From a virus (lineage: Duplodnaviria > Heunggongvirae > Uroviricota > Caudoviricetes), in IMG/VR virus record IMGVR_UViG_3300025735_000005: a DNA stretch of 64,000 nt. One strand, written 5' to 3'. The translations under genes were made by a program, and so were the position numbers. The notes below the pieces were generated by a model. That model did no database searches, was not told the origin of the DNA, and saw only the letters and a list, made by a program, of their open reading frames with translations. Shown in pieces: positions 8,801 through 53,710 of this stretch. How positions within the stretch are numbered: the first letter of the stretch is position 1; the number at the start of each line of letters is the position of its first letter.

Positions 8801-11800
8801 CAAAGCTCCGGCTGCAGCCAGCAGAAACAGCTTATTCTGCAAAAGTGAAGAAAGACCGCTCAATATTGGTGAAATGGCACTAAAGAAGCCAGAAATACCC
8901 GAGCGCAGCCCGCTAAAGATTTGTGCAGAAAACGAGAGCAACACAGTCTTCAAATTAGAAGTAGCGCCCTTGATTGTCCTGATAGCAGCGCTGCTAGCCT
9001 TTGTAACGCCGTCCTTAAGCTTCTTTCCGAAATCACCAAGGCTGGTGTTAGGAGAGATTTGAAGCTTAGATACACCTTCGCGTAGACTTTTGAAGGAGTC
9101 TATAAAGTTAGTATCTGACTGCGGTTGCTGAGGACCATTAGCGCCGACCACACTGCTCTTAAACAACGTGCTCTTAAGGTCCAACTCACCATTTGCGTAA
9201 CGTTCACGATTAGCAGCGATATTGCGAAACATATTTGCAAAATCATCGCCAATAGCTGCCAAGGCAGTAGCAATAGGGCCACGCTGTTGGTTTGCCACGC
9301 GCCTAAAGAGAAGAATAGGGCTAGACAACCATGTAGAAACACGCGCAGTCCAACCAGCAGGAAGCACAACAGACGCGGCATCTTTCGCCAGTTTGCCTAG
9401 CACGCCCGCAAGTAGATTGCTACCCATAACGGTAAGATCTCGCAGCAGGCGAGCGCCGCCGTCTTTACCAAACATCGCAATCGCAATGAAAGGCAGAGAG
9501 GCTTCTACAGCTTCCACCATTCCAAACGCATCAGTCAGACCTAGCGACAGGATGCCAGCGGCAATAGCCGCAAACTTAGGCTCATCAATCAGATTCTTAG
9601 CAAGGCTGCTGGTAAACTTAACACGAGAGAGTTGCCCCAAAATAGGGCCACTGTAACCTTCAAGCAGTGCCGGAGCAATACCAGGTTTACGCCTCTTACC
9701 TTCTTTACCGTTACCAAACAGCGTCGTGTAGATATCAGAAAACTTCTTCCCCGAAAACTTGCTATATGCAATCGTAATTGCTGCAAGTGCTCCGATTACA
9801 CTATTAGAGAAGATCGGGATAAGATTGCTTACAACATTCAGAGGCCCTTCCATAAATGGCAGAGCATCCAGGAAGATGCCACGAAGCATTGCAGGGATTG
9901 CGTGGCCGATAAGAGCGACACCTTCCATCGCACTCGCGAGCAACTTCTTAATAAACTCATTTGCGACTACGCCAGCAGCTTGCCCAATAGCTGGAGCTGC
10001 ATTAGTCAATGCTCCACCAGTTGCTGAGTCTACAATAGACATCAGGTAGGAAGCAGCGAAGAATTTAATCGGAGTACTCTTAGAGCGAAGCAACACGAAC
10101 GAAGCATACAATACGGAGCCAAAAGAAGACGCTAGATTCTTAGCAGTATTACCCCAATCGATGTCTTGGATAGTCAGCTTAAGGCTACGGAAGGTGCCAC
10201 CGAAGCGTTGGCCAAATCCTTCGATTTTCTTGTATACGCTTTCAAATGCTGATTTTACAAGATCACCAAACTTTTCGATAGCTGACTGCGAATGGAATAG
10301 GTTCTTCGTGTAAGCATTAACGTCATCGATCGTGTCCGGCCAGAAGGAGTGTCCAACAACTTCATCCCAGATATTGTAGAAAACGTCTTTGATCGTCTTC
10401 CCAAAGTTAGAAACAATACGTTCCACCTTGGCAAGTCCACCACTGGCATAAGATTCAACCGTACGGATCATATTGATGAAGCTTTGCAGCCCATCACGCG
10501 CAGACGCCTTCAAACTATCAAAGATAGCACTGTAATCTACCTGCTGAAGTTGATGCACCAGCTCTGAGCCGACACCAGCAAACACCCCGACCAGAAAGGC
10601 AGGCAGAGTCTTGGCAACACCAACTAGGATGCTAACAATAGTCTTGCCGATCTTAGTGCCTATATCATCGGCGTTTGCCACATTATTGAGCAGTTTTCGG
10701 GCCACTGTAGCGAGTGTCTTAAGCGCTCCAATAACGCCATTAACCAGAGCTTCTCCCAACGCCTTGCCTGTTTCAAAGCTAAAAGCTGAAGAGAAGATAT
10801 CTCGGATGGTCTTGAGGCCAATGTAGACATTTACAGCGGCCTTGTATGCAAAATTACTGAGATCTGGCAGAACAAGATCATTGAATGCTCGCTTGGCCAT
10901 ATCACCAATGAGACGCATATACTCAATAACGCGATCAAATCGGGTGTCTCGAATACGAACAAGTTTGTTGTCCATCAAGCCTAGCTGGATTAGCACATCC
11001 TGCAGAGGCCACACAGTAAACTCTTTAACCAGTCGTTCTTTTTCACGGATCAGGTACTGCACACGATCAATACGGATCAGGTGCCCATCAAAGGTATTAT
11101 TAAGCCTAGTAAGGTTGTCGGCGAATTCCGAAATATCTTTAGACTTAAAAAGGCTGACCAAAGCTCTAGGCGCAAAGTTATCTCCAAGGAAACCTACAGA
11201 CAGCGTTTCTTTAAGGCCTTCTAGTCCACGATTAAGCGGAAGAAGAGCTTTATATACAAATGTATCAGCATCATGCGCAGTCTTCGCAACGGTTGCACCG
11301 AAACTATCGCGGAAACGAACCATAGGTGCAATGATGACAGGCATACTACGCGCAATATTGCGAGCAATCAACTCCACGCTACGCGTCATCTGCACAGCAG
11401 AATCAGTGAGCGCTTCTACAGTCTTACGCGTGTCGCCTAGATCAAAGAATCCTCGATTGTCTTCCTTAGTAGGCTTCTTGATACGGCTGAACAGTCGTTG
11501 AATGATATTCTGTGGAACATCGATTTGATCTTGCGTCTTGAACAATTCGCGGATTTTATTCACCGCGTCCTTGGTCTGTGCCCGCATTTGGCTACGCAGC
11601 GACAAGGGATTGAAATCAAGGGCTAGCTGCCACTTAAGCCTAAACGAACGGAAGGCATCAAGTGACCTGATGTAATTGTCGAAAGCGCGCTGCGTAGTTG
11701 CAAGGCGGATAATGATCTTATCAGCACCAAAGCCTACATCATCTGCAATAGACGAAAATACCTTACCTAGAGACTGAGACGCGCCGAGGTAGGTATTGAT

Positions 11801-12691
11801 ATCACCAAAGAAGTAGCCAAAAGCCTGCGACATCTTGTTAAGACCAGCAGAGGCGGTAGTGGTCGTCTTTGTGAAGTCCTTATCAACACTTGCGGCCATC
11901 TTTTCAAGTTGCTGAACGAGGAGATCAGTAGTGATCTTACCGTTATTGGCAAACTGCCGAAGCTGGCCTACGCTGACATTAAGAGACTTAGCTAGTGCAA
12001 TGCCCAGATAAGGCATTTGCTCCATGACTGAGTTAAATTCTTCGCCACGGAGAACACCGGAGGCGATCCCCTGGTTCAGCTGAGTAATAGCAGCAGCAAT
12101 CGATTCTACAGAAGAACCTGAAAGTTGAGCACTCTGCTGGATCGTCTTATTCAGACGAATAATCTTTTCCTGGCTGGCACCCGTCTGCTCCAAAGATTTG
12201 CTGAGCGTAAAATACAGATCAGCATTATTCTTGAGTAAAGTGCGGGTATCTTGCGAAGTCTTAAACAAGGCTCGCTGCGACTGAGTAAGCTCTGCGGTAC
12301 CTTGCGTTACGAGCTTTAAGCGATTTCGAATATTCTCGAGATCATCGCCAACACGCGCGAAGGCAGTAACACCACGGGTGGCAACAAATGCTGCTGCAAC
12401 ACCAATAATACTACCCTTCAACAGGTTCATATTGGCTACAAGTTTGTTAGTGTCACCGGCGACGGCGCGGAGGGAGGCCGTACCAGTGGTCCCAAAAGCG
12501 CGCAACTGACGGTTAGTGCGGTCAACCTCCTGACCCACTTTCTTAAATTGATCGCTGTCTACACCGTTTAGTGCAGTACTAGCTTTATTACCTCTAAGCA
12601 CTAGATCTGCCAGCGACTTGTTAAGCTGCTTGAGATCAGACCGCGCTTTGTCAGAGCTGGTATCTACGTCAATAATAACGCCAGACATCAA
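2813..12691 (-). CDS. tail tape measure protein (3292 aa)
   Basis: Giant ORF located between tail assembly chaperones (G/GT) and minor tail genes; long coiled-coil-like Ala/Gln/Lys-rich stretches and a C-terminal Gly-rich block (GGGSSGGGIGSAIGGLFGKGSDG...GLGASGAAGLGSLAGGLFG) typical of TMPs. RBS AAGGAA 8 nt upstream of ATG. Confidence 0.8.
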   Translation of the reverse strand: MMSGVIIDVDTSSDKARSDLKQLNKSLADLVLRGNKASTALNGVDSDQFKKVGQEVDRTNRQLRAFGTTGTASLRAVAGDTNKLVANMNLLKGSIIGVAAAFVATRGVTAFARVGDDLENIRNRLKLVTQGTAELTQSQRALFKTSQDTRTLLKNNADLYFTLSKSLEQTGASQEKIIRLNKTIQQSAQLSGSSVESIAAAITQLNQGIASGVLRGEEFNSVMEQMPYLGIALAKSLNVSVGQLRQFANNGKITTDLLVQQLEKMAASVDKDFTKTTTTASAGLNKMSQAFGYFFGDINTYLGASQSLGKVFSSIADDVGFGADKIIIRLATTQRAFDNYIRSLDAFRSFRLKWQLALDFNPLSLRSQMRAQTKDAVNKIRELFKTQDQIDVPQNIIQRLFSRIKKPTKEDNRGFFDLGDTRKTVEALTDSAVQMTRSVELIARNIARSMPVIIAPMVRFRDSFGATVAKTAHDADTFVYKALLPLNRGLEGLKETLSVGFLGDNFAPRALVSLFKSKDISEFADNLTRLNNTFDGHLIRIDRVQYLIREKERLVKEFTVWPLQDVLIQLGLMDNKLVRIRDTRFDRVIEYMRLIGDMAKRAFNDLVLPDLSNFAYKAAVNVYIGLKTIRDIFSSAFSFETGKALGEALVNGVIGALKTLATVARKLLNNVANADDIGTKIGKTIVSILVGVAKTLPAFLVGVFAGVGSELVHQLQQVDYSAIFDSLKASARDGLQSFINMIRTVESYASGGLAKVERIVSNFGKTIKDVFYNIWDEVVGHSFWPDTIDDVNAYTKNLFHSQSAIEKFGDLVKSAFESVYKKIEGFGQRFGGTFRSLKLTIQDIDWGNTAKNLASSFGSVLYASFVLLRSKSTPIKFFAASYLMSIVDSATGGALTNAAPAIGQAAGVVANEFIKKLLASAMEGVALIGHAIPAMLRGIFLDALPFMEGPLNVVSNLIPIFSNSVIGALAAITIAYSKFSGKKFSDIYTTLFGNGKEGKRRKPGIAPALLEGYSGPILGQLSRVKFTSSLAKNLIDEPKFAAIAAGILSLGLTDAFGMVEAVEASLPFIAIAMFGKDGGARLLRDLTVMGSNLLAGVLGKLAKDAASVVLPAGWTARVSTWLSSPILLFRRVANQQRGPIATALAAIGDDFANMFRNIAANRERYANGELDLKSTLFKSSVVGANGPQQPQSDTNFIDSFKSLREGVSKLQISPNTSLGDFGKKLKDGVTKASSAAIRTIKGATSNLKTVLLSFSAQIFSGLRSGISGFFSAISPILSGLSSLLQNKLFLLAAAGALIVGLASTANAATGAGQAFTDLGGNIGGVVVSTLALAAAFKAVQKSVQAFKTFRSTKKDFVNDAIGGELQNYKDSLNEKRQTKLWDFDKLSKAQRMEQFGTASRGTYSAMLNKGIKEKLNSKEQELRSGVDQAATKAAWDAVTLNIRGFASRLQDLSKATVFSASWWNDRIGKLMSGETSLTDSLSNAKDRFNQTRQAGEGLKAGFSTFFGTLLGSRRASATIIIDKAIVTLRSAVGMGAGARAISGGTGPILIGGVSGAAREAGILARIFRPVGAAFRGAGFAARILGSAAGLLARGLTAVLGFFGLALGPEIIALVGAVTIATGLIAGFFGPFESFTDNIKWLGDNILGFFGMDAKSGAGKAAKLAKDFGVKDVAGQKFDIRDQLKNIDLSQVSDGQQAALQNYLQTITDTISQLNDEAMSQGGKLNDEQKRRFAKLQQDSSEMLARYPLRPGATARNIGDTIAINAADRAKPDTSLTGNLGRFIFGKGDGTGFTIWLSNMWKDIKNVFTSIGDWWEKKALPGIYTASDYVKNAIAHALNKVGDYISNSWLGRAGRAVGNKAQGAFDAVRARAQDTSVNDTKMYNEWEKQFTAKAVKNFAFLSPKQQGVFNNARAEYDQSVRTVAATNRDGQRFGEGKDDFEARRRAELQHLAKVEVAYRRISDALGVLGQKNADVKAFNDSLADFTTKTKALGTDFGTKGEKFFGGKSDVEAFKKYSDQFNKANARLNPTTDSEKAVAASDFTARRIAQQWMKSATEAADEFNKQIADRMLLGSKITQQAGALGDGANEGLLRNFAISGSKAAVEFGKASAEYLRLKTELDKAPSDATPDQLKKIADAVSEAETKMRALQPSDMSFDGINNALQKIQVPSLDMTDYINLPTDQIQALADELKDVDKASKDVRVAMDHIGDTDGPARAKTALEQLRKAAANVAATRAEADNVLTSQIAGAGAIPATLRARLINETAGLGANARALKRNAGEVSKLGSERAKLAADAASIESRISYDGKGGITGVTPAEIARLDAAKIRLDAIGERVNELGQAPKKEVKDRYGFKELLADVNEAGVEISDMGFSRLSQTSRSSLQSIASQIHGIEKQLKNATPTQDVSALLQQKADLLASMREKLVDSFDKTGKALGESLSRSGVGDQVSIEAIATNKLKQLVELDKRIQLKRLEADDVTNLEDYVAKMAQLNKLERERAKLLEDSTNSMDKYAERINSIFGTNLELFNTDLFGEQFAAYISSAAGVIKAQMAKLAAQGKASFGWLREIKQQGEYISLFNDMAQSIDDAFIRGARSAFKKIKDIIPDYGVTEQQFRRFSPEQRQSVTQSAINLDALDRAQELPNLTKPLVDIINSFNGSNQNDVMSRFRTEFEKEFKTKFDATPFESAVDRFSSAVDRFATPPVATGKAFSDTELKGIVTGLFPNARVNGLSRTQARNDQLYADGTHHRSYHVPGTEAGVSAVDVKPMAGITFKDFVKKFKDAGYSVAEAIDESRKSTAKNGGKNWHIALRNAPMVDSTEAPPIVVDGIKTKNTPLERGYSQVYDLIDQAKKSSTFTRQYGGNRKDALAASGIDRKTLDLFTPAQLQTLEQYQKRIDGLNEAILQADTAGEDTSKLAKSLQIAQGSMERFTDRVVHAGDNFRQMGEQFAQSLDKNFQDALFNAFSGKGNFFSTIFDGLAQDILHQATSAITAPITGENGVITNGIRSVFGGGSSGGGIGSAIGGLFGKGSDGINNGLFSGLFGGGDKNTVVPDVGGFASSLNIGNSLPTLDAGSGVGLFKKGGDLLGKDVLGSLDSGASTIGDTLGTGADALSGGIGDALSKGTDSLSKGISGAFSGLGASGAAGLGSLAGGLFGSLIAGFFADGGQISTTGKISGKGSDRSDSILAAVSNDEHIIKAKQARKYRKLLVAINEDKLPKFADGGIVGSSSIGSIIAVPTTSTIDEKKMPKANTSGKTEINLGITGDVTKQTKRTVYEMLPEIAAGVNAHNKEKGIK

Positions 12692-13950: not shown

Positions 13951-14026
13951 TGGCGGATCCGCTAGGGGTCGAACCTAGATTGCTGGATTTGGAGACCAGA
14001 GTCCTACCATTGGACGACGTACCCAA
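13951..14026 (-). tRNA. tRNA-Trp (anticodon CCA), 76 nt with encoded CCA end
   Basis: Minus-strand sequence GGGTACGTCGTCCAATGGTAGGACTCTGGTCTCCAAATCCAGCAATCTAGGTTCGACCCCTAGCGGATCCGCCA folds as cloverleaf: D-arm GTCC/AATGGTA/GGAC, anticodon loop CTCCAAA (U33, CCA, A37), T-arm CTAGG/TTCGACC/CCTAG; acceptor stem has one A.G mismatch and anticodon stem one T.T mismatch. Confidence 0.55.
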
Positions 14027-15891: not shown

Positions 15892-17079
15892 TTAGCTGTG
15901 GAAGACGGGCAGAATGCCGAGCGACAGGGCCGACGTAGTCTTACGCTGCCAGATACCCTTCACGTTCGCGATGTTAGCATCGACCATGTTAGCAACGGTA
16001 CGAACCGTGCTGCCATCAAGGACCGAAGCATAGTCAGCGTCCGAAGGGAAAGCTTCTTCTGGGCCAGCCCAGGTGTAGCCAGCGGGGTGGATCACATAGC
16101 CCCAACGGTGCCAGATTTCCTTGGTACCCGAACCCTTATAAGCAGCCGCGCGAGCGTCCACTTCCACAGGCTCAGGGATATCCAGCTGTTCCATAGCAAT
16201 AGCGCCAGGAAGCACCAGGAACGAGGTATACTGGCCAACGATATCAACGCCAGCACCGACATTGATCTTTGCAAGCTCTGCCGTAGTGAACGAGGTGTTA
16301 GCACGAGACAGAATCAGGCGGAACTTACCATTAAAGATGGTTTCAAATTCCAGCTGACCATCAACGATCTTATCTTGGTCAATCAGGTTAGCCGAACGAA
16401 CGCTCGCCAGGATAGCCGGATTAATAACCCAATACATATAGTCGGGTTCGCAATCCTTGAAAGCCATACCAACAGCACGGAACATAGCTTCTGCACGCTG
16501 AGCGCCCTGAGCCGTGGTCGTAGCAGCACCAACCGGAGAGTTAGCACCAAGGTCCACATAGAAACCATAACGCTTATCAGTCGGATCGTTGAAGAACGTC
16601 TGGCCACCAAGGCCGGCCTGTCCAGTTGCGCTGGCAGCACCATTCAGAAGCTCGGCAACGGCAACACCCTTCAGAACAGCCATAAGCGCGTTATGTTCGT
16701 CCTGCGCATGATGCTCTGCAAAGCTCTTACCCATCTGGATCAAGTCGTCCTTCTGAGTAATAAGCTGCTTGAGATTAACCTTCTTTGCGCCCCACGTACG
16801 CACAGTCTTAATATACTGCGCCCAGTCGCTGGCAAAATCATTGTAGGAACCGTCAGTCGAGTCCGTGATAGAAGCAACGTTGATGACGGCATTCATCGGC
16901 TTGAACCAGCGCATCTGACCGACAAACGTTTCAGTGTTCTTGTCAATCTGAGGATTACCGCCTACAATGGCAGTGCTGGACAGCTTCTTAGCATTAGTGT
17001 AGGCCTCATCGCTGTAAGCAGCGAGAGTTTCCTGCAGGACGTAGTTGAGTGCGCCTGCCGGGATCGAGGGAGTCGGCAT
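15892..17079 (-). CDS. major capsid protein
   Basis: 395-aa ORF following scaffold gene; size, position, composition and elevated GC (high-expression codon usage) fit a major capsid protein. Confidence 0.75.
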   Translation of the reverse strand: MPTPSIPAGALNYVLQETLAAYSDEAYTNAKKLSSTAIVGGNPQIDKNTETFVGQMRWFKPMNAVINVASITDSTDGSYNDFASDWAQYIKTVRTWGAKKVNLKQLITQKDDLIQMGKSFAEHHAQDEHNALMAVLKGVAVAELLNGAASATGQAGLGGQTFFNDPTDKRYGFYVDLGANSPVGAATTTAQGAQRAEAMFRAVGMAFKDCEPDYMYWVINPAILASVRSANLIDQDKIVDGQLEFETIFNGKFRLILSRANTSFTTAELAKINVGAGVDIVGQYTSFLVLPGAIAMEQLDIPEPVEVDARAAAYKGSGTKEIWHRWGYVIHPAGYTWAGPEEAFPSDADYASVLDGSTVRTVANMVDANIANVKGIWQRKTTSALSLGILPVFHS

Positions 17080-17097
17080 TTTTCAGAGATTCCTTGT

Positions 17098-17784
17098 TTA
17101 GCCCCTCGCAGGTTTACCTGCTAGGATGTTCGCAGCAATCTGATCAAAACCCATTTCAAAAATAGAACCAGGTTTATTTTCAGGTTTGCCGCTGGGTTTA
17201 ATAGGCTGGCTACCTCCGCCGCTATTACGCTTAGGCTTGAGCAAGTATGAATTATCATCATGCTCCAGGAAAGCCTTCACATAATCCTCGACAGAACGAC
17301 CATCCTTGGCCTTCCAAACGCCATCATCACCCTTGATAAGCTCAGAAGTGATTTCATTAACAGCAGCTTGCTTAGCCTTGGGAGTACGAAACTCTACGTC
17401 AACAGACGAGACAGCATCACGCACGTCACGATCACGAGACAGTCGAACGTTACTTTCGCGAAGGCTAGTAAGCTCCGACTCAAGAGCGGTCTTTTCGAGA
17501 GCGTAAGCTTCAGCAAGCTTACCTTCATCCCGCAGTCGGTTAGCCTCACGTTCACGTTCTGCCTTTTCAAGTGCAGCAGCCTTTTCTTCAGCCTGCTTTA
17601 CGCGCGCATTCAGATCGTCCATCTTCTTCTTGAAATCGGCCTTGGCCTTATCAAGAGCCTTTTGAGAGTCAGACACGTCCTCAATAGGACTGCCATCTTC
17701 GTTCTTGGTCGGATCATAGTCGGGGTTGTCGATCATCTGACCTTCGTTTTCAGGATCAGGGATCTGCTTTGGATTCACTAGCAT
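17098..17784 (-). CDS. scaffolding protein
   Basis: 228-aa highly charged, coiled-coil-like protein (KKKMDDLNARVKQAEEKAAALEKAEREREANRLRDEGKLAEAYALEKTALESE) immediately before capsid gene. Confidence 0.6.
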   Translation of the reverse strand: MLVNPKQIPDPENEGQMIDNPDYDPTKNEDGSPIEDVSDSQKALDKAKADFKKKMDDLNARVKQAEEKAAALEKAEREREANRLRDEGKLAEAYALEKTALESELTSLRESNVRLSRDRDVRDAVSSVDVEFRTPKAKQAAVNEITSELIKGDDGVWKAKDGRSVEDYVKAFLEHDDNSYLLKPKRNSGGGSQPIKPSGKPENKPGSIFEMGFDQIAANILAGKPARG

Positions 17785-17892
17785 TCAATATTCCTCTGAG
17801 CACAGCTCACTACTTAAGCAACAGTACAACTGTCACTTGAATGGAATGGCGGAAAGGCCACGCTTGAGCACTGCTTTCTACGTGACCCTACC

Positions 17893-17910
17893 GGGTTAAT
17901 TTAACGGGCT
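17893..17910 (-). promoter_or_regulatory. conserved motif GGGTTAATTTAACGGGCT (copy 1 of 4); candidate phage-RNAP promoter for scaffold/capsid operon
   Basis: Same 16-nt core as at 32428, 53644, 53692; lies in intergenic gap between RNAP gene stop (17916) and scaffold start (17784). Confidence 0.5.
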
Positions 17911-17915
17911 CGACT

Positions 17916-20900
17916 TTACCCTACACCGTACCAACCATAGTTATTTTCAAAGTCATACGGTACTTCTTCAAGCACTTGCTCTTGTGTTAGGATATCGTCT
18001 TCTGTAAGTACCTTACCACCAATCACAGACCTTCCTGCGACAGGCACTAGCCCTTTATCAATAGCGTCATTCAACAGCTGATCATAAATATCTTGAGGCA
18101 GACCTCTGTTTTTCATCTCATCCAGCGTCATAATGATAGGATTTTTATCCATAACCTTAGCGTAGATTTGGCGAAGAGCAGATCTGCCAGGAAGCATATC
18201 GGCAATATTAGTAAAGAAAGCGTCATGTACAGTGGAGGTAGCTACATTGTTAGCTTTACCCCAAAGATGAAACCGCTTAACAATGACAGCATCATTTGAA
18301 TGGTTTGCATTAACACCAAAAGCAGTGCCGGCTTTGATGGGATTAGCGATGTCATTGATAGTGCCCGACTTATTAAGTACTTGATCCCACCAGCTCGCTG
18401 CTGTCTTTTGTGGAATCATAAGGATATTAGTTTGCCAATTACCATCTTTATCTTTGTAAACTAAACGTTCTTCAAATGTTTGCGTGAAGGACTGATTGAT
18501 TACCTTTCCATCAAAGTTGACAGAGGGTACATAAGTCCAGCTCTTCGGCAAATCATTCATGTTGGTGTACAGTAGCGTGATTTCAGAAGCCTTTTCAACA
18601 TCCTTGAAACCAGTCACACCAAACTTTGAGGCGATATCTGCGATTGGTACGCCACCAACGCTAAGATCTAGCTTAAACAACTTTCGTCCTAGGGCACGTT
18701 CGCCTGGCTTTTCAACACCAAGGATTAGGTCTGCTAACCCACTTTCAGGCTTCCAATCAGTAAAGACCCGCTGCAGCAGTTCTGCTGTAACAGTGGTGTT
18801 TGGTGGAAGCCCTAAGTAACGCGCAAGCTCTTTACCGATAGGACCACGTCCTGGGCCTTTACGTTCACGCCCTGTCAGTGCGTATGAGGCAATTTTCTTC
18901 CAATTCAAACTGCTGTCTGATGGCTTGGCATTTGCTAGAAAGGCTTGAGCCATGCGTCTGAAGAAGGGACTAAACTCCTTTAGGATAGGCACTTGCTCAT
19001 TCAGATGGTCTGACATGATTCGGGCTACAGCTTCGAAGTCTTTAGGCGTCACGATTTCATCATACGCTTGAGACATCTTCTCTACTAGCTCGCGTGTTTT
19101 AGGCTCCAGGAACCAGAGTTCTGCCATGATTTCGTCGCCAGGTTGCTGACCTTTATTGAAGACATCTACAATATCCTTACGTAATTCGGCAAGCATGTCA
19201 GCGCCTTCTGGATCGTATCGAAGCAGACGTGCCCTCCTGGCATCAATCTCATTCAATACGGTCTGACGTTCTCCGGATGTAACCACAAGAGTATTATCAC
19301 GTTTACCGAGTACCTTACCAAGCTTTCCTTCTACATTCATGATGCCAGTTCTTTCACCAGCGCCGTAAAAGGTCACCATATTTTGGGCTTTAGCTGCTTT
19401 TTGCAGATCTTTAAGCTTCAACCCCAATCGTTCATTTAGGGTCTTAAAGCGAGGATCATTATAAGTAGCTGCAGCAATTTCGTCGTATAGACGTCGCTTT
19501 TGGCTAGTCGGAACCACGTTAGACAGTGACGCCAGTGCTCTGTTTCTAGTTGTAAGTGCAATAATCTGGGCACCCGACGATGATGCGTCCTGCTCCATAG
19601 CAAGGCCAGTCATTAGGTTATCTAGCGTTCCGCCACTTGTTACATGGTTCTCTATTTTAGCTGCTTCAATTGCAAAACGAAAGAACTTACCTAGCTCTTC
19701 ACCTTCAACTTCGGCAACAATATCGCTTTCTAGGATTGCCCTAATATCTGCAGGCCTAGCAGACAACATCTGTTTACCAATGTTTACAAGATCTGGCCAC
19801 CACTTCTCAGCGATGCGTTGCCTACCTCTGAACGTCAGACTATCATAATTACCCTCAAAGAAATCAGCTAGACCACCTAGAAAGCTTCCTATCTGATCTG
19901 TGAAGGCATCATACCCTGCTTTTCCCATTGGTTTTAGTGCAGCTGTGTTGAGGAAAGGGCGAAAGCTTTCACCACTCTGCGCTGAGATATAGCCACGATC
20001 GTAGACACGACCACGGTGGTCTACAAACGGCAGATTAGTGAACGTTTTACCGCGCAGCCATTGCATTGCTTTAAAACGTTCATAAGCATCGCCGCGAGAG
20101 GTAATATACTTACGATAATGATTAAGATCGTCATACTTCTTTGAATTACCTCTATCATCCTTAAAGTATAGAAGCTTTTCAATGAAGTTATGGAAATCTG
20201 AATCAACTGTGTACGCGGCTTTACCAGCCCAATTGAGGGCATCAGCCAAATCTTTATCTACAAAGTCACGAGTAACTTCTGAAGAAGTAATTGACTGGCG
20301 AGTGTTGTACCAGAGGCCGTTTCTTTTAGTGTAGTATGTGGTATAGCCAGGGCGAATCACCAGACCATTGTCAAAGGTGGCCGGAATACGCATACCAACT
20401 TCAATTTTACGCTCCAAAAGGCCATACTCGATTAGCCGAGGATCCAGCAGCCGGATGTAGTAAGAGACAGTATCATAGTACGGACCGAAGTATCTACCAG
20501 AGACGCTAGAACGCATTCTACGCTTTTGAACACCGAATGTATCAATGTCAAACAAATGTCCGGCCTTGCGCTCCAACAGCTTAACACCCAGCTCGTACCA
20601 ATCGCGACGATTGCCATTAAGATTTGCTGTATTATAAAGGCTTCTGCCTAGGTAAACAGCCAGAGCATCTCTATCGCTGCCCTCTCGAACCAATCTATGA
20701 GCAAACTGCTGATAAAATGATTGAAGCTGCGCATCAGATAGACGACGCTTGATCTTCAGTGGAATGCCGGGATCGAAGAAGCCTCGCAGCTCGTTTGCAA
20801 TTGTAGGAGCAACACGGTCTTCCCACTTGTTACGTGCAACAATATTATCAACTAGCCCTTTTTGGAGTTCATCAAGCTGAGTTCGACCTAGAACAGGGTC

Positions 20901-22571
20901 AATATACTCATCTTCCAGAAGCTTCTTAAGAACATCTTTATCACGGCGCAGCTGTGTTTCGATAGCATCCGAGATATTCATTACATCGAATTTCATCTGG
21001 CTATTTAAAACAGCTTTAAGGTTGCCCCAGGGCTGCCCATTCTGCCGAAAGCGGCCAATGACAATACGAAGGTTATCAGCAATAACAGAGCGCTCATTCA
21101 TACCCATCTTCATTGACAGGTCATCCATGACTTGCTTAATAAAAGCTTTATCTTGGTCTTTTAGAAGATCACTGTCATCCACACGGCGCAAGGCACCTGC
21201 GTAGACATCGCCGTTAGGCTGATAAATACGAACGTCATCGTATCTCTGTGTTAGAGGATTGAAGCGAAGCTGTTCTTCCTTTGGCGGTGTTGAAAGAACT
21301 CTATTGCGAGTCAATCGCTTATTACCAAGGTTGATACCACGGTAGGAAGTAAACGAAAGATTACCGTTGAGGTCACCTGCTTGAAGGAGGTAGTAATCTA
21401 CCAGCGTCTTGCGGATATCCTGCAGCTCCTCAGGTCTAGCAGCACCGAGTTGCATCGCGTCCAGACGTTGTTTTGCATCAGCAAATTTACGAGTATCACC
21501 AGGTACTACGTAATCGGCATCAGTAAGCTGTCGAAGCTCCTTAATACCAATATTATTACCCTTAGCATTAGTGAATTGGTCAACGGTCAATTCACCACTA
21601 TTCAACATCTCAACTTTCTTATACTCGCCAAGATGCCTCAATTGAACAGCTACGGGTTGCCTTTTGAGCCAGTCATTGTAGCTTTCCCGTAACGGCGTCT
21701 GACCATCGTAGAACTTTTTCTGTGCTTCTGTGAGCCCTTGTAGGTTTCTCCTACGGACTTCTGCGACGCTTTCCAGATTCGCGACATCTGACCAACTTTT
21801 GAAGACAGGTATGGAAGTAGAGCGACAATTCCAATGAGCTGGAGGAAGATGCTCCACATCACCGACCGGGTAGATTGTTCCATCACGATGGGCACACAAG
21901 GGAGTAGTACGGCTGTCCAAAACAGCAACGTATTGCCAACCTTGGATTGCTTTTTCGTTAGCTTTATAGACTTCATGATCAGCCTGATTATGGACAGACG
22001 TGATTGACGTTGTTACCAGCGTCTGTGATTGTTGCTTTGTAATGCTGTGAAGGTTGCCTTTACGAACAGCCAGAGCAATGTCTTGCATGCTATCACCATT
22101 AGCGATGCCACGGCGAATGATTTGCTCAATACGCTTGCGTTCATTTACAGAGACGCCCAACCAGCCTTGCTCTAGAGTCTTATCTGCGTAAAGAGGACGT
22201 TCAAGTACAACTTCTTCAGCCACACGTCTAGTCGGCCTCTGTGTGCGCCAAATCTTGCCCATCACGTTTTCTACGTTTTGATAAGCAAACGATACTTGGT
22301 CATTGAATAGATCTAAAAGCGAGCGACGCATGGTAGAATGGACTTCAGTAAAGGTATCCTGTAGCTCCTGATCTACAGCCTCTCTAAGACGTGCTAAGCC
22401 TTTGTCACTTTTCTCTGCGTCTACTACAAGCTTATCCAGACGAACAGCGTGGCCGTCAAGTACCAGTTCTACTTTACCCTGGACACGTCGTTCGTATAAG
22501 CGGATCATAGCCGCTCTATCAATAACCTTGTCATAAAGTTCAGTATTAGCATTGACGGCCTTCATTATCAT
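17916..22571 (-). CDS. fusion protein: N-terminal Mu F / SPP1 gp7-like head morphogenesis domain + C-terminal T7-like single-subunit DNA-dependent RNA polymerase (1551 aa)
   Basis: N-terminal region carries the Phage_Mu_F signature (WQYVAVLDSRTTPLCAHRDGTIYPVGDVEHLPPAHWNCRST). C-terminal region carries ssRNAP motifs: motif A AMEQDASSSGAQIIA (cf T7 DGSCSGIQHF, Asp537), motif B region MVTFYGAGERTG (cf MTLAYGSKEFG), motif C STVHDAFFTNIAD (cf HDSFGT, His811/Asp812). Confidence 0.85.
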   Translation of the reverse strand: MIMKAVNANTELYDKVIDRAAMIRLYERRVQGKVELVLDGHAVRLDKLVVDAEKSDKGLARLREAVDQELQDTFTEVHSTMRRSLLDLFNDQVSFAYQNVENVMGKIWRTQRPTRRVAEEVVLERPLYADKTLEQGWLGVSVNERKRIEQIIRRGIANGDSMQDIALAVRKGNLHSITKQQSQTLVTTSITSVHNQADHEVYKANEKAIQGWQYVAVLDSRTTPLCAHRDGTIYPVGDVEHLPPAHWNCRSTSIPVFKSWSDVANLESVAEVRRRNLQGLTEAQKKFYDGQTPLRESYNDWLKRQPVAVQLRHLGEYKKVEMLNSGELTVDQFTNAKGNNIGIKELRQLTDADYVVPGDTRKFADAKQRLDAMQLGAARPEELQDIRKTLVDYYLLQAGDLNGNLSFTSYRGINLGNKRLTRNRVLSTPPKEEQLRFNPLTQRYDDVRIYQPNGDVYAGALRRVDDSDLLKDQDKAFIKQVMDDLSMKMGMNERSVIADNLRIVIGRFRQNGQPWGNLKAVLNSQMKFDVMNISDAIETQLRRDKDVLKKLLEDEYIDPVLGRTQLDELQKGLVDNIVARNKWEDRVAPTIANELRGFFDPGIPLKIKRRLSDAQLQSFYQQFAHRLVREGSDRDALAVYLGRSLYNTANLNGNRRDWYELGVKLLERKAGHLFDIDTFGVQKRRMRSSVSGRYFGPYYDTVSYYIRLLDPRLIEYGLLERKIEVGMRIPATFDNGLVIRPGYTTYYTKRNGLWYNTRQSITSSEVTRDFVDKDLADALNWAGKAAYTVDSDFHNFIEKLLYFKDDRGNSKKYDDLNHYRKYITSRGDAYERFKAMQWLRGKTFTNLPFVDHRGRVYDRGYISAQSGESFRPFLNTAALKPMGKAGYDAFTDQIGSFLGGLADFFEGNYDSLTFRGRQRIAEKWWPDLVNIGKQMLSARPADIRAILESDIVAEVEGEELGKFFRFAIEAAKIENHVTSGGTLDNLMTGLAMEQDASSSGAQIIALTTRNRALASLSNVVPTSQKRRLYDEIAAATYNDPRFKTLNERLGLKLKDLQKAAKAQNMVTFYGAGERTGIMNVEGKLGKVLGKRDNTLVVTSGERQTVLNEIDARRARLLRYDPEGADMLAELRKDIVDVFNKGQQPGDEIMAELWFLEPKTRELVEKMSQAYDEIVTPKDFEAVARIMSDHLNEQVPILKEFSPFFRRMAQAFLANAKPSDSSLNWKKIASYALTGRERKGPGRGPIGKELARYLGLPPNTTVTAELLQRVFTDWKPESGLADLILGVEKPGERALGRKLFKLDLSVGGVPIADIASKFGVTGFKDVEKASEITLLYTNMNDLPKSWTYVPSVNFDGKVINQSFTQTFEERLVYKDKDGNWQTNILMIPQKTAASWWDQVLNKSGTINDIANPIKAGTAFGVNANHSNDAVIVKRFHLWGKANNVATSTVHDAFFTNIADMLPGRSALRQIYAKVMDKNPIIMTLDEMKNRGLPQDIYDQLLNDAIDKGLVPVAGRSVIGGKVLTEDDILTQEQVLEEVPYDFENNYGWYGVG

Positions 22572-23285: not shown

Positions 23286-24923
23286 TTATGCCTTTAATTT
23301 TGCCTTCATCTGCTGGGCAAAGTTGGATTGCTGGGCTGCATGCTGCTCACGAGCAGATACAACAGTCTCGTCTGCATTGATCTCCTTCTGAGCTTCGTCA
23401 TCATCAAAGTCAGGAGGAAGCATATCATTTTGCTTGAGGATAAGAAGCCAAGCACTACGAGGGATAAGCGCATTCTGATACCATTCAGTGGCCAGCCGAA
23501 GCCAGTCAGCACCTTGTGGAATTGGATTGAAATCAGAAGAAAGTTCAAATTCCATATCAGCGGGATCAATTTCAAGCGCATACCGCCAGTTAATCATAAA
23601 GCAGATAATCTGCCGTAGAGTATTTGAAACCTTAGTATTCAAAGAACCTAGTTGTGCAGTTTGAGCTGCATTACGTAACTCCAGCGCGACACCCGACTGA
23701 TTTCCAGTCTCAGGCGCCAGCATCCGAACACCCAGCTTAGCGATTTCTTCGTAGCCTGCTGCAATTGCATTCTCCATATGTTCCAAGGCATCTGCAGGCG
23801 CCTTTAGAATATCTGCCTTATCTTCAGAGTTAGGCAAATGGATCCAGCTACCTAAACCTCCTTCTACAACTTCCTCAAACTTATCATCAGACATGCTGGA
23901 AGAGAGAACCGGAGTATAAGTAGCTGCGCCGTACATCAAGTGGTTACGACGACTGATCTTATTGTAGAGGGCAATTTCCTTATCTACAATCGCAGTCAAC
24001 ATTGGCTCCTGGCCTTCAATAGAACCATTGAGAGGCCACGCGGGGATCATCGTCAGCGGCTTATCGTGAACTAACACAGGAATTGTGTCGATTAGTTTAT
24101 AAATAGGATTGTTGGTATTATTGATCTGCTTGTCACCGCCAACGTATGTGACACTGTCAGTAGCTTCGTCTACTTCAAAGACACGAATTTGGTAAGTACC
24201 AGCAGAGCTAAGCTCATGCACCCAGATAGTAGGAACCATCTTAGGGTGGAATTCGTACTGGTCCTCGTCGTAACGTTCAGTCCAACCCTTCACAACCACG
24301 CGGTCTAGGATGGTCTTACCTGCAGAGTCTGTACGAGTGCGAGTATTGATGATGCTCTCTGCCTGATAAAGCACAGGGTAGGGCTTTGCAGTGGCGTCTA
24401 CTTCTTCATCTTCAGGTACAACAGGGTAGTCAACAAACACCCATGCCGCGCTGGTCTGCACTTCCTCCCAGAGAGCTTCGTCCATAAAGGCAGTTAGAGC
24501 AGAATCGTCCTTACCAAACTCATGTAGAATCCAGTGGTATGCCTCTTTAGGAACACTATCTGGAAACTTGATAGTAGGTTGCTTACGCAGCAGACCGCCT
24601 ACGAGCGTCTTAGAGAACTGTGCAGTGATCCCAGGCAACTCTGCCTCTGCCTTATAAAAGGCATATTGACGAGCAGTCATAGACGGAGAGAAAGGAATGA
24701 GCAAATTCGTGAAGTTAACGACATCCAATGTATCATCGAAATCTTTTACGAATTGCTCACCTTTACAGACAGCCCTACTCTTTGCGCGAAGATACGAGAA
24801 GCTCTCATAAGCAGCAGAAGGATCAGCCACCGTCTTGACAGGCGTGGTTGCTGTATTAGCAACAGTAGTGGCACGAGACTTTATGGGCGCTGCCGCCAGC
24901 CTTTCGAAAGTGGCTTCATCCAT
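23286..24923 (-). CDS. portal protein
   Basis: 545-aa ORF positioned portal -> MuF-domain protein -> scaffold -> capsid exactly as in SPP1-type head modules; size typical of portals; acidic C-terminus. Confidence 0.55.
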   Translation of the reverse strand: MDEATFERLAAAPIKSRATTVANTATTPVKTVADPSAAYESFSYLRAKSRAVCKGEQFVKDFDDTLDVVNFTNLLIPFSPSMTARQYAFYKAEAELPGITAQFSKTLVGGLLRKQPTIKFPDSVPKEAYHWILHEFGKDDSALTAFMDEALWEEVQTSAAWVFVDYPVVPEDEEVDATAKPYPVLYQAESIINTRTRTDSAGKTILDRVVVKGWTERYDEDQYEFHPKMVPTIWVHELSSAGTYQIRVFEVDEATDSVTYVGGDKQINNTNNPIYKLIDTIPVLVHDKPLTMIPAWPLNGSIEGQEPMLTAIVDKEIALYNKISRRNHLMYGAATYTPVLSSSMSDDKFEEVVEGGLGSWIHLPNSEDKADILKAPADALEHMENAIAAGYEEIAKLGVRMLAPETGNQSGVALELRNAAQTAQLGSLNTKVSNTLRQIICFMINWRYALEIDPADMEFELSSDFNPIPQGADWLRLATEWYQNALIPRSAWLLILKQNDMLPPDFDDDEAQKEINADETVVSAREQHAAQQSNFAQQMKAKLKA

Positions 24924-32143: not shown

Positions 32144-32427
32144 TATTTCTCCTCTCGGACACTAAGGCAGCTGCAAAATATCAAGCTGTGCCTGTGTGAC
32201 CCATCATTAAGCTAACGGTTTCGTGATTATCCCTTTGCACACCTATCTTGTACGCTGCCAGAAAACGTTTGTAAATCAACGCTCTCGACGCCCGGCTAAA
32301 GGTACACAGGAGGAACACTCCTATAGGGGTAAGGGTATAGGGTATAATATAGGGTCTATCATCTATCATCCTCTACCCTTATACTCCCAATCTTGTTACC
32401 TAACGGTAACGGAGGACGTAAATATCA

Positions 32428-32444
32428 TTAATTTAACGGGTTGA
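32428..32444 (-). promoter_or_regulatory. conserved motif TTAATTTAACGGGTTGA (copy 2 of 4); candidate phage-RNAP promoter for packaging/late genes
   Basis: Shares 13-nt core with the three other copies; sits 30 nt downstream (in transcription direction) of a strong terminator. Confidence 0.45.
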
Positions 32445-35672: not shown

Positions 35673-35741
35673 TAAGGTAATGCCCTTTACAAGCCTGACT
35701 TAACCGCACACGATTATTTATTGATAATCGCTTCTCTCCTG

Positions 35742-36560: not shown

Positions 36561-36569
36561 ATTTTAATC

Positions 36570-39131: not shown

Positions 39132-39197
39132 ATCACGTCCTCGTCAGGGGCCACGATCTGCATGTCCTTTAAGATGTATTCTATATACCTCGGACAT

Positions 39198-53643: not shown

Positions 53644-53663
53644 GGGTTAATTTAACGGGTTGA
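53644..53663 (-). promoter_or_regulatory. conserved motif GGGTTAATTTAACGGGTTGA (copy 3 of 4)
   Basis: 52 nt upstream of the 201-aa gene ATG; flanked by CCCTTTCA. Confidence 0.5.
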
Positions 53664-53691
53664 TTATGCCCGGTCAACCGTCCCTTTTCAA

Positions 53692-53710
53692 GGGTTAATT
53701 TAACGGGTTA
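53692..53710 (-). promoter_or_regulatory. conserved motif GGGTTAATTTAACGGGTTA (copy 4 of 4), tandem with copy 3 (48 bp apart)
   Basis: Same core and same CCCTTTTCAA flank as copy 3. Confidence 0.5.

What the first reader, a model, noticed from the sequence alone, without database searches (positions are those of the whole stretch)
17916..22571. Mu F / SPP1 gp7-like head-morphogenesis domain fused to a T7-type single-subunit RNA polymerase: a candidate virion-packaged, co-injected RNAP
Seen directly: one 1551-aa ORF has the Phage_Mu_F signature (LDSRTTPLC...HWNCRST) in its N-terminal quarter. It has ssRNAP motifs A, B and C (DASSSGAQ; YGAGERTG; VHDAFFT) in its C-terminal half.

Established: MuF/gp7 domains bind the portal, are encapsidated and ejected with the DNA, and are known carriers of fused cargo (polymorphic toxins). 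T7-like RNAPs are normally soluble early proteins, and N4-like phages inject a giant vRNAP.

Inference: this fusion would deliver a compact RNAP into the cell with the genome through a MuF carrier, an N4-like strategy on an unrelated scaffold. The gene sits in the head module (portal - X - X - MuF-RNAP - scaffold - capsid), and a phage-specific promoter motif recurs in the genome.
Basis: partly seen in the sequence, partly recalled or inferred. Interest (0 to 1): 0.85.

Follow-up and report, generated by a model that had tools for sequence, protein, structure and literature searches.

The report
Head-protein-fused RNA polymerase, probably injected
A tailed phage fuses a complete T7-type RNA polymerase to the small head protein that normally sits on the capsid's DNA portal, so the enzyme is probably carried in the virus particle and injected with the DNA to start viral gene expression; this is a new way of doing what phage N4 does.

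Summary

The fusion is not an artefact. Hundreds of metagenomic proteins have it, as do EBPR siphovirus 1 and the cultured dU-DNA roseophages DSS3_VP1/PM1 (Naomviridae). The gene always lies between portal and scaffold/capsid.

New evidence lies outside the window. The same 79-kb genome encodes a second, ordinary T7-like RNAP, interrupted by a group I intron, ahead of the replication genes. DSS3_VP1 and one further checked uncultured contig also have both enzymes.

Two strand-specific promoter-like motifs exist. A different 28-nt motif occurs mostly upstream of the second RNAP gene. This virion-RNAP plus non-virion-RNAP logic supports the "packaged, co-injected RNAP" reading. Which enzyme reads which motif is unresolved, and packaging is untested. 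No paper in the searchable library describes the fusion.

The parts
17916..22571 (-). Whole MuF(gp7)-RNAP fusion gene: 1551 aa, 176 kDa, no intron in this phage
21522..22571 (-). N-terminal gp7/MuF-type head-morphogenesis module (aa 1-350), equivalent to an entire SPP1 gp7-like protein. It has a long helical hairpin (aa 8-104) followed by the MuF core.
   Evidence: PHROG 241 E 2e-63 over aa 3-350; AF2 model of aa 1-520
21816..22133 (-). Pfam Phage_Mu_F / TIGR01641 core (aa 147-252), containing LDSRTTPLC and HWNCRST
   Evidence: L218, D219, T222, C226, P243, P244, H246, C249, R250 and S251 are invariant in the 23 most divergent members.
21447..21791 (-). Junction zone (aa ~261-375). It is conserved in sequence but modelled with low confidence, so it is a likely flexible or binding-induced linker between carrier and polymerase.
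   Evidence: pLDDT below 50 at aa 261-277, 286-295 and 332-361. W301 and Q305 are invariant.
17919..21434 (-). Complete single-subunit RNA polymerase module (aa 380-1551), including an N-terminal domain and a ~200-aa partly disordered insertion between motifs B and C
20001..20021 (-). T/DxxGR motif DHRGRVY (aa 851-857)
   Evidence: Aligned to T7 RNAP DWRGRVY; R855 invariant
19566..19589 (-). Motif A DASSSGAQ (aa 995-1002; catalytic Asp995)
   Evidence: D995 invariant in all members; aligned to N4 RNAPII DATSSGLQ
19344..19391 (-). Motif B KAQNMVTFYGAGERTG (K1061, Y1069, G1070)
   Evidence: K1061 invariant; Y1069 and G1070 at or above 90%. The K-x3-M-x3-YG spacing matches my recollection of T7 RNAP; that comparison was not made with a tool.
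18210..18230 (-). Motif C VHDAFFT (H1449, D1450)
   Evidence: Aligned to T7 IHDSFGT; D1450 at or above 90%
17893..17908 (-). Class-A promoter-like motif CCCGTTAAATTAACCC, a few nt after the MuF-RNAP stop codon and ahead of the scaffold/capsid operon
   Evidence: The same motif lies about 10 nt after the end of the gene match in 17 relatives, and within 150 nt in 20 of 65.
53644..53707 (-). Two tandem exact class-A motifs (53644-53659 and 53692-53707) ahead of a block of middle genes
32425..32440 (-). Variant class-A motif ACCCGTTAAATTAATGATATTTA upstream of the packaging genes. A twin lies after the last tail gene, outside the window.
23286..24923 (-). Portal protein, the presumed docking partner of the gp7/MuF module
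   Evidence: PHROG 145 E 3e-55
15892..17784 (-). Scaffold (17098-17784) and major capsid protein (15892-17079), immediately downstream
   Evidence: PHROG 206 and PHROG 247

Best explanation
The gene encodes a virion RNA polymerase built on a new carrier.

Shown:
- Residues 1-350 are a full SPP1-gp7/Mu-F-type minor head protein.
- Residues ~380-1551 are a complete, catalytically intact T7/mitochondrial-type single-subunit RNAP.
- The fusion and its position between portal and scaffold are conserved across a large, mostly uncultured siphovirus group. That group includes EBPR siphovirus 1 and, distantly, the Naomviridae (DSS3_VP1/PM1).
- The same genome encodes a second, ordinary T7-like RNAP next to the replication genes.
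- Two separate conserved, strand-specific promoter-like motifs exist.

Inferred:
1. The gene is expressed late with the head genes. Its gp7-like module docks the protein on the portal inside the procapsid, so a few copies are encapsidated.
2. At infection the protein leaves through the portal and tail with the DNA, as gp7/MuF proteins and their fused effector cargoes are thought to do.
3. In the cell, the delivered polymerase transcribes the early region, which includes the intron-containing gene for the second, non-virion RNAP.
4. The second RNAP then drives the middle and late operons.

My preferred assignment is that the 28-nt early motif tGCGsAAAAnnnGGTATCTTATATGAaA (class E) is read by the injected enzyme, and the CCCGTTAAATTAACCC motif (class A) by the second RNAP. 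This step is the least certain.
For: Domains and fold:
- HMM evidence for both domains.
- AF2 model with pLDDT 82.

Catalytic integrity under purifying selection:
- D995, K1061 and R855 are invariant, and Y1069, G1070 and D1450 are at or above 90%, in members only 22-45% identical.
- All 23 of those members keep PF04233, and 18 reach PF00940.

Fusion is the rule:
- Nearly all of the 120 listed hits of the word-indexed search carry both Pfam domains.
- In the 1.84-billion representative library, almost every match longer than 1100 aa (22 of 25) places the matched RNAP segment ~640-930 residues into the protein, i.e. behind a long N-terminal extension.
- MuF and RNAP matches are contiguous, and portal ... 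scaffold-MCP synteny holds, in 35 of 35 long loci.
- Group I introns sit inside the gene in three relatives, a hallmark of conserved essential phage genes.

Second RNAP:
- L003 2539-5486 encodes a 746-aa T7-like enzyme with a group I intron inside motif B.
- It is only 26% identical to the fused enzyme over 200 aa, so it is not a recent paralogue.
- Its best phage match is the annotated RNA polymerase of DSS3_VP1.
- Both genes lie on one contig in a further lineage, IMGVR_UViG_3300034072_000369.

Promoter classes:
- A: strand bias 61:0 and 41:1. It lies after the nvRNAP gene and after the MuF-RNAP gene.
- E: 55 sites upstream of the nvRNAP gene against 6 downstream, and 61:3 strand bias. No exact copy occurs in the head-gene loci, only 1-mismatch matches.
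- E does not look sigma-70-like: the -35 TTG and the last -10 T are not conserved.

Literature:
- MuF/gp7 proteins are head components, and MuF is fused to enzymatic domains that are likely effectors delivered into the host (PMC5512222).
- RNAPs fused to virion proteins and paired with a non-virion RNAP are known from P23-45 and N4 (PMC10770324; PMC4496689).
Against: - There are no virion proteomics or transcription data for any member. The DSS3_VP1 papers never mention an RNA polymerase.
- Passage of a 176-kDa protein through a siphovirus portal and a roughly 0.5-micrometre tail is assumed by analogy only.
- PF00940 passes its threshold only marginally, and profile-to-PDB sequence similarity to T7 RNAP is insignificant (E 0.3-0.5). 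The RNAP call therefore rests mainly on motifs and the predicted fold.
- The early motif E could be a host-RNAP promoter.
- The promoter assignment could be the reverse. E resembles T7/SP6-type promoters in layout (my comparison from memory), and A precedes the early region as well.
- Six E-core matches lie downstream of the nvRNAP gene.
Confidence: 0.7

Rival explanations
1. The fusion is an intracellular late polymerase rather than an injected one. It is made late and, while still free or tethered to portal or procapsid through its gp7 module, transcribes the class-A promoters (for example scaffold/capsid). Any encapsidated copies have no role in the next infection.
For: The gene lies in the late head operon, and a class-A motif sits directly after it, ahead of the most highly expressed structural genes. 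The A motif contains a short hairpin-forming element, which loosely resembles N4 vRNAP promoters (the N4 comparison is from memory).
Against: A separate, conventional T7-like RNAP is already available for middle and late transcription. A conserved full gp7/MuF module has no obvious purpose for a purely cytoplasmic enzyme. Known MuF fusions are interpreted as delivered cargo (PMC5512222).
Confidence: 0.12
2. The protein is injected, but its main job is mechanical or priming. Transcription by the portal-proximal RNAP pulls the 79-kb genome out of the capsid and tail, as transcription does for T7 and N4 genome entry, or it makes primers for replication. Host RNAP expresses the early genes from the E sites.
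For: All genes are co-oriented on one strand, which suits transcription-coupled entry. The tape measure is very long at 3292 aa.
Against: This largely overlaps the main model, since a pulling polymerase also makes early RNA. E sites lack conserved sigma-70 hexamer features and are conserved across many phages. A primase-helicase is already encoded.
Confidence: 0.1
3. The RNAP-like region is an inactive relic used only as bulk internal or pilot protein or as a DNA-binding module, or the fusion is an assembly or sequencing artefact.
For: PF00940 scores only 25.5 bits against a cut-off of 22. There is no significant sequence match to solved RNAPs.
Against: Catalytic Asp, Lys and Tyr residues and the T/DxxGR motif are invariant or nearly so across members 22-69% identical. 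The full polymerase fold is predicted with high confidence. The fusion recurs in hundreds of independent assemblies and in isolated phages.
Confidence: 0.03

Closest known systems
Coliphage N4 gp50 virion RNA polymerase (Schitoviridae)
   Same: It has a T7-family single-subunit catalytic core and is encoded among late and structural genes. It is encapsidated, injected and transcribes early genes, and it is paired with a second phage-encoded T7-like RNAP (RNAPII) for the next temporal class (PMC4496689, PMC5512222).
T7 RNA polymerase and T7-like RNAPs (Autographiviridae); mitochondrial RNAPs
   Same: They share the overall fold and the T/DxxGR, A, B and C motifs.
   Different: T7-type enzymes are free ~750-900-aa proteins made early. 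The present one is fused behind a 350-aa head protein, is encoded in the head operon, and carries a ~200-aa insertion between motifs B and C. It is so divergent that a phmmer search of 1.84 billion proteins returned only 156 matches, far too few to include the ordinary T7-like RNAPs, which number 2733 records in the phage collection alone. The genome has a separate ordinary T7-like RNAP.
SPP1 gp7 / Mu gpF minor head proteins and MuF-effector fusions (polymorphic MuF toxins, polyvalent proteins)
   Same: The N-terminal module passes both curated family thresholds, and the gene sits next to the portal gene. The architecture is MuF carrier plus C-terminal enzymatic cargo.
   Different: The cargoes listed in the passages I read are toxins, RNases, ADP-ribosyltransferases, RelA/SpoT, PRTases and the like. 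No polymerase cargo appeared in those passages (PMC5512222).
Thermus phage P23-45 gp96, a tape-measure-fused virion RNAP with the gp64 non-virion RNAP
   Same: It is a virion RNAP made as a fusion to a structural protein of a long-tailed siphovirus, plus a second non-virion RNAP, with separate promoter classes (PMC10770324).
   Different: The P23-45 enzymes are two-barrel (cellular-type) RNAPs and the carrier is the tape measure protein. Here the enzyme is a T7-type right-hand polymerase and the carrier is a portal-associated head protein. The tape measure here shows no extra domain.
Bacteriophage DSS3_VP1 YP_010105321.1 'head morphogenesis' (Naomviridae) and EBPR siphovirus 1 gp47/gp49
   Same: These are homologues with the same fusion and the same synteny. 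DSS3_VP1 is 31.6% identical and EBPR siphovirus 1 is 52.5% identical. DSS3_VP1 also has the second RNAP.
   Different: They are annotated only as head or hypothetical proteins. The RNAP part is not mentioned in the papers read. DSS3_VP1 has dU-DNA, whereas no dCMP/dCTP-deaminase homologue was found in this phage.

Membership tests
Phage_Mu_F / SPP1 gp7 minor head (head-morphogenesis) proteins | Matches the curated family models above their thresholds | tested here: met
   PF04233 60.5 bits against 29.6; TIGR01641 68.4 bits against 39.65; PHROG 241 E 2e-63
Phage_Mu_F / SPP1 gp7 minor head (head-morphogenesis) proteins | Gene located in the head module next to the portal gene | tested here: met
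   Order is portal, two small ORFs, this gene, scaffold, MCP. The same order holds in 35 of 35 relatives.
Phage_Mu_F / SPP1 gp7 minor head (head-morphogenesis) proteins | Protein binds the portal, is present in a few copies inside the capsid, and leaves with the DNA | not testable with these tools
   This needs virion proteomics, cryo-EM or ejection assays. No solved MuF structure was found for comparison.
Single-subunit (T7-type) DNA-dependent RNA polymerases, PF00940 | Family HMM above the gathering score | tested here: met
   25.5 bits against 22, which is marginal. 18 of 23 divergent relatives match, with a best E of 1e-25. PHROG 414 E 6e-16.
Single-subunit (T7-type) DNA-dependent RNA polymerases, PF00940 | Catalytic motifs T/DxxGR, A (Asp), B (Lys...Tyr-Gly) and C (His-Asp) present and conserved | tested here: met
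   DHRGRVY 851, D995, K1061/Y1069/G1070, H1449/D1450. They are invariant or at or above 90% across the family.
Single-subunit (T7-type) DNA-dependent RNA polymerases, PF00940 | Full right-hand polymerase fold with RNAP-specific N-terminal domain | tested here: met
Single-subunit (T7-type) DNA-dependent RNA polymerases, PF00940 | Promoter-dependent RNA synthesis | not testable with these tools
   This needs in vitro transcription.
N4-like virion RNA polymerases (Schitoviridae gp50) | Giant (~3500 aa) protein with N4-type N-terminal region and C-terminal zincin-peptidase/encapsidation region | tested here: not met
   The protein is 1551 aa. Only MuF and RNA_pol domains were found. PHROG 2166 'N4-like RNA polymerase' gives only E 3.5e-4.
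N4-like virion RNA polymerases (Schitoviridae gp50) | Polymerase core most similar to N4 mini-vRNAP | tested here: not met
Virion RNAP / non-virion RNAP two-polymerase phages (functional class: N4, phiKZ/AR9, crAss-like, P23-45) | One RNAP encoded with structural genes and a second RNAP encoded with early or replication genes | tested here: met
Virion RNAP / non-virion RNAP two-polymerase phages (functional class: N4, phiKZ/AR9, crAss-like, P23-45) | Distinct promoter classes for the two enzymes, with the early class confined to the early region | tested here: inconclusive
   Two conserved, strand-specific motif classes with different genomic distributions exist. Their readers and their promoter activity are not shown.
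Virion RNAP / non-virion RNAP two-polymerase phages (functional class: N4, phiKZ/AR9, crAss-like, P23-45) | Structural-module RNAP detected in purified virions and active at time zero | not testable with these tools
   No proteomic or transcriptomic data were found for any member.

The most novel reading that the evidence does not exclude
A large, globally distributed and almost wholly uncultured clade of ~65-90-kb siphoviruses, with Naomviridae as a distant cultured branch, runs its whole transcription programme without host RNA polymerase. A portal-docked gp7-RNAP fusion is ejected with the DNA and reads a dedicated 28-nt early promoter. That switches on an intron-containing T7-like RNAP, which reads CCCGTTAAATTAACCC-type promoters for all later genes. 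This would be a second, independent origin of a single-subunit virion RNAP. It would also be the first case of the MuF/gp7 'cargo carrier' delivering a polymerase rather than a toxin or effector.
Probability: 0.45. Interest if true: 0.85.

Novelty: new variant of a known kind. Interest (0 to 1): 0.78.

Why it matters
Virion-packaged RNA polymerases are known from only a few phage lineages: N4-like, phiKZ/AR9-like, crAss-like and P23-45-like. Each one revealed new transcription biology.

This case would add a compact T7-type enzyme riding on the portal-associated gp7/MuF carrier in long-tailed phages.
- It shows that the MuF 'delivery handle' can carry a core information-processing enzyme.
- It shows that virion delivery of a single-subunit RNAP evolved more than once.
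- It would explain how the dU-DNA roseophages (Naomviridae) and their many uncultured relatives start infection.
- It offers a naturally minimal injectable RNAP and two candidate orthogonal promoter/polymerase pairs for biotechnology.
- It is directly testable, because DSS3_VP1 and its host Ruegeria pomeroyi DSS-3 are in culture.

Tried and rejected
- Megablast of the gene against 50,697 phage records found nothing. Only protein-level relatives exist.
- phmmer of the whole protein and of aa 1-380 against PDB sequences gave no real hits. The designed Kelch-repeat hits are spurious.
- A family profile against PDB gave only insignificant T7 RNAP and N4 RNAPII hits.
- A Foldseek search with the N-terminal model (pLDDT 69) gave no match below E 0.78. 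Nothing was learned about the MuF fold.
- The search for related loci with the second RNAP as a single sequence found nothing. An alignment with the DSS3_VP1 RNAP was needed.
- The look-up of encoding contigs for P0015 returned a different contig. Co-occurrence was then shown with an exact 50-mer scan.
- dU-DNA as the reason for a virion RNAP: no homologue of the DSS3_VP1 dCTP deaminase occurs in 77 kb of this genome. The HD-domain protein sits in an RNA-repair cluster. This idea is not supported for this phage.
- Early motif E as a sigma-70 promoter: the consensus scan did not call the two sites. The TTG of a -35 and the last T of a -10 are not conserved in 46 sites. I consider this unlikely but not excluded.
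- The YGT-loop hairpins upstream of the scaffold gene as N4-style hairpin promoters: I rejected this because a start about 11 nt downstream of the loop (N4 geometry, from memory) would fall inside the ribosome-binding site, and because the element occurs only at this one locus.
- Literature searches for MuF + RNA polymerase, PF04233 + PF00940, Naomviridae, and head morphogenesis + single-subunit RNAP found no description of the fusion.
- The 658-aa PHROG 1735 protein was checked as a possible third polymerase. It has no Pfam, NCBIfam or PDB match and remains unresolved.
Full report
OBSERVATION

Window 17916-22571 holds one uninterrupted, ATG-initiated ORF of 1551 codons on the minus strand. 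The product is 176 kDa.

- LDSRTTPLC, aa 218-226
- HWNCRST, aa 246-252
- DASSSGAQ, aa 995-1002
- YGAGERTG, inside KAQNMVTFYGAGERTG at aa 1061-1076
- VHDAFFT, aa 1448-1454
- in addition, a T/DxxGR motif, DHRGRVY, aa 851-857

Nearly all genes of the window are on the minus strand. The neighbourhood is as described:
- portal, 23286-24923
- a 142-aa ORF
- a 94-aa N4 gp49/Sf6 gp66-family ORF
- this gene
- scaffold, 17098-17784
- major capsid protein, 15892-17079
- head-tail adaptor, tail terminator, major tail protein
- a 3292-aa tape measure protein

The phage is therefore a long-tailed siphovirus.

THE TWO DOMAINS

The N-terminal 350 residues match complete gp7/MuF-type head-morphogenesis proteins:
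- PHROG 241, E 2e-63
- Pfam Phage_Mu_F, 60.5 bits against a cut-off of 29.6
- TIGR01641 phageSPP1_gp7, 68.4 bits against 39.65

The polymerase part is much more divergent:
- PF00940 just passes, at 25.5 bits against 22.
- PHROG 414 'RNA polymerase' gives E 6e-16.
- Neither the sequence nor a 97-member family profile finds T7 RNAP significantly among PDB sequences.

I therefore modelled aa 380-1551 with a 97-sequence alignment. The model has mean pLDDT 82 and pTM 0.77.

Foldseek aligns about 1100 columns to human and yeast mitochondrial RNAPs and to T7 RNAP, at E 3e-18 to 1e-15 and probability 1.0.

The C-terminal three quarters are thus a whole single-subunit RNAP of the T7/mitochondrial kind, and not a derivative of the N4 virion enzyme.

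Between motifs B and C there is a roughly 200-aa insertion that is partly disordered in the model.

A model of aa 1-520 has pLDDT 69. It shows a long helical hairpin, the MuF core, and then a low-confidence but sequence-conserved junction (aa ~261-375) before the polymerase begins.

THE FUSION IS REAL, CONSERVED AND UNDER SELECTION

- The word-indexed search with the polymerase part found 379 proteins. Nearly all of the 120 listed are 1520-1580 aa and carry PF04233 plus PF00940. One is identical and sits on a 79,040-bp contig.
- An exhaustive phmmer search of 1.84 billion cluster representatives found only 156 matches. Of the 25 matches longer than 1100 aa, 22 place the matched polymerase segment ~640-930 residues into the protein, behind a long N-terminal extension. 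The other three are close relatives aligned from the start of the query at about residue 360-390, that is, directly behind the gp7/MuF module. The family is discrete, and among full-length members it is essentially always fused.
- In the 23 most divergent members (22-45% identity), all have Phage_Mu_F and 18 reach PF00940.
- In those members D995, K1061 and R855 are invariant, Y1069, G1070 and D1450 are at or above 90%, and the MuF signature residues are conserved as well.
- IMG/VR holds at least 123 relatives.
- In all 35 loci long enough to judge, the MuF and RNAP matches are contiguous and flanked by portal upstream and scaffold plus capsid downstream. This includes EBPR siphovirus 1 and DSS3_VP1.
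- Several relatives have group I introns inside the gene: L068 has two, and L055 and L045 have one each. In EBPR siphovirus 1 the gene is split by an HNH ORF. Such elements typically colonise conserved essential genes.

A sequencing-error fusion and a dead relic are both excluded.

The window is 64 kb of a 79-kb genome. Just beyond coordinate 64000 the genome encodes a second PF00940 protein, in locus L003. It lies upstream of a T7-type replication block (DNA pol A, gp5.9-like protein, exonuclease, primase-helicase).

This second gene is in two pieces, separated by an HNH ORF. The break falls inside motif B (...KRKIVKR | NVMTLPYGG), and Rfam finds a group I intron there at 78 bits. After splicing it is therefore one 746-aa T7-like RNAP.

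It shares only 26% identity over 200 aa with the fused enzyme. Its best match among phage genomes is the annotated RNA polymerase of DSS3_VP1/PM1, at 34.7% identity over 95% of its length. The DSS3_VP1 gene sits in the same synteny: tail, lysis, small genes, RNAP, DNA polymerase.

Relatives of this second RNAP occur on many 60-78-kb IMG/VR contigs. One of them, IMGVR_UViG_3300034072_000369, was shown directly to carry the fusion gene as well. Four more contigs have lengths identical to contigs that carry the fusion.

The clade therefore has two very different single-subunit RNAPs, one in the head operon and one in the early/replication region.

PROMOTER-LIKE MOTIFS

In gene orientation it reads CCCGTTAAATTAACCC.
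- It is the most over-represented 11-mer of the genome.
- It occurs six times in a 77-kb reconstruction, always intergenic and on the coding strand.
- The six sites are: after the second-RNAP gene, ahead of replication genes; in tandem at window 53644-53707; ahead of the packaging genes (a variant at window 32425); a few nt after the stop of the fusion gene (window 17893); and after the last tail gene.
- Across relatives it is strongly strand-specific: 61:0 in the fusion-gene loci and 41:1 in the second-RNAP loci.
- It sits about 10 nt after the end of the fusion-gene match in 17 relatives.
- It sits 0.6-1.3 kb after the second-RNAP gene in most of the 26 loci that have a copy downstream of that gene.

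Class E

A second motif is absent from the window. Its consensus is tGCGsAAAAnnnGGTATCTTATATGAaA.
- It was seen at 46 distinct sites.
- 55 copies lie upstream of the second-RNAP gene against 6 downstream, and the strand bias is 61:3.
- The head-gene loci contain no exact copy, only 1-mismatch matches.
- In this phage it occurs twice, at L003 1283 and 1453.
- Its length and conservation across many phages, together with the lack of a conserved -35 TTG or a final -10 T, argue against an ordinary sigma-70 promoter.

MECHANISM

The best-supported model has four steps:
1. The fusion is made late.
2. It is docked on the portal by its gp7-like module and encapsidated in a few copies.
3. It is ejected with the DNA.
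4. It transcribes the early region, which includes the gene for the second RNAP. The second RNAP then serves the class-A promoters.

The first three steps rest on what is known of gp7/MuF proteins and their fused cargoes (PMC5512222). They also rest on the precedents of N4 and P23-45, where a virion RNAP fused to a virion protein is paired with a non-virion RNAP (PMC4496689 and PMC10770324).

The promoter assignment is inference. The reverse assignment (A read by the fused enzyme, E by the T7-like one) and host transcription of E are both still open.

KNOWN OR NEW

The DSS3_VP1 homologue is annotated as a 'head morphogenesis' or 'minor head protein-like' protein. JGI names the metagenomic members 'SPP1 gp7 family' proteins.

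- The papers on Naomviridae that I could read never mention an RNA polymerase.
- The survey of polyvalent and MuF-fused proteins states that N4-like virion RNAPs occur only in N4-like phages. The MuF cargoes it names in the passages I read do not include a polymerase.
- Full-text searches combining MuF with T7-like/single-subunit RNAP terms or virion RNA polymerase, head morphogenesis with single-subunit RNA polymerase, or the two Pfam accessions, found no description of the fusion.

Subscription-only literature was not searchable. I rate this a new variant of a known kind: a virion RNAP on a new carrier and of an independent origin.

LIMITS

- There is no experimental evidence for packaging, ejection or activity.
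- Host and DNA modification are unknown. No dCTP-deaminase homologue was found, so nothing indicates dU-DNA here.
- The N-terminal module has no solved structural relative.

Noticed in passing
L003 2539-5486 (same 79-kb genome, just beyond window coordinate 64000): A second, conventional T7-like RNA polymerase (746 aa after splicing). Its gene is interrupted inside motif B by a group I intron (Rfam 78 bits, L003 4029-4262) that carries an HNH homing-endonuclease ORF.
   Followed up: yes
L003 1283-1311 and 1453-1481; 46 sites in L086-L138: A conserved 28-nt early-region motif, tGCGsAAAAnnnGGTATCTTATATGAaA. It lies mostly upstream of the second RNAP gene and is strand-specific. It does not look sigma-70-like and is a candidate promoter for the injected enzyme.
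   Followed up: partly
window 17797-17809 and 17821-17833 (minus strand); 33 of 46 related loci: Tandem small hairpins (4-6-bp stem, YGT loop) lie just upstream of the scaffold gene's ribosome-binding site. They are about 12-fold enriched there (2.76 per kb against 0.24 per kb). Many different stem sequences occur (GAGT/ACTC, GGGC/GCCC, AAGT/ACTT and others), which indicates compensatory change, and the element is also present in DSS3_VP1. It is probably an RNA operator or stability element for scaffold/capsid expression.
   Followed up: partly
window 29279-31288 (minus strand); intron at 30222-30450: The large terminase gene is split into 306-aa and 167-aa parts by a group I intron (Rfam 87.5 bits) that carries an Endonuclease VII-type HNH ORF (29816-30235).
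   Followed up: yes
L068 12021-12277 and 14171-14393; L055 12108-12343; L045 2799-3051; L001 (EBPR siphovirus 1 gp48): Group I introns or homing-endonuclease ORFs interrupt the MuF-RNAP gene itself in several relatives. The gene in this window is uninterrupted.
   Followed up: partly
window 2813-12691 (minus strand): The tape measure protein is 3292 aa. Only its N-terminal TMP_3 domain is recognisable. At 1.5 Å per residue this implies a tail of roughly 0.5 micrometre. No polymerase or other enzymatic domain was detected in it.
   Followed up: partly
window 42717-44693 (minus strand): A 658-aa protein matches PHROG 1735 (unknown function) at E 1e-216. It has no Pfam, NCBIfam or PDB sequence match and is the largest unexplained gene in the window.
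   Followed up: partly
window 35223-41544 (minus strand): This stretch holds an NAD+ salvage pair (nicotinamide phosphoribosyltransferase at 39198-40658; NMN adenylyltransferase-Nudix at 40561-41544). Next to it is an RNA-repair-like cluster of RNA ligase, HD-domain phosphohydrolase, polynucleotide kinase and phosphatase (35223-37887). Both may counter host defences that deplete NAD+ or cleave tRNA.
   Followed up: no
window 13951-14024 (minus strand): A tRNA-Trp (anticodon CCA) is embedded in the tail module.
   Followed up: no
window 62323-62847 (minus strand): A SegE-type GIY-YIG homing-endonuclease ORF lies between the exonuclease and primase-helicase genes. Together with the introns, it shows a genome heavily colonised by homing elements.
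   Followed up: no
L085 9374, 9841, 9999 (DSS3_VP1, downstream of its RNA polymerase gene): A motif, ATAGGGTGCGTTAAAGA, is repeated three times and shares the core CGTTAAA with the class-A motif. It is a candidate phage promoter in the cultured model phage.
   Followed up: no
L139 3992-5893 (Pelagibacter phage Kolga): Kolga has a related T7-like RNAP and a 633-aa MuF head-morphogenesis protein whose C-terminal ~280 aa did not match the fused RNAP domain in the search (the match ends at aa 355 of the query). It is a possible unfused comparison point for how the fusion arose.
   Followed up: no
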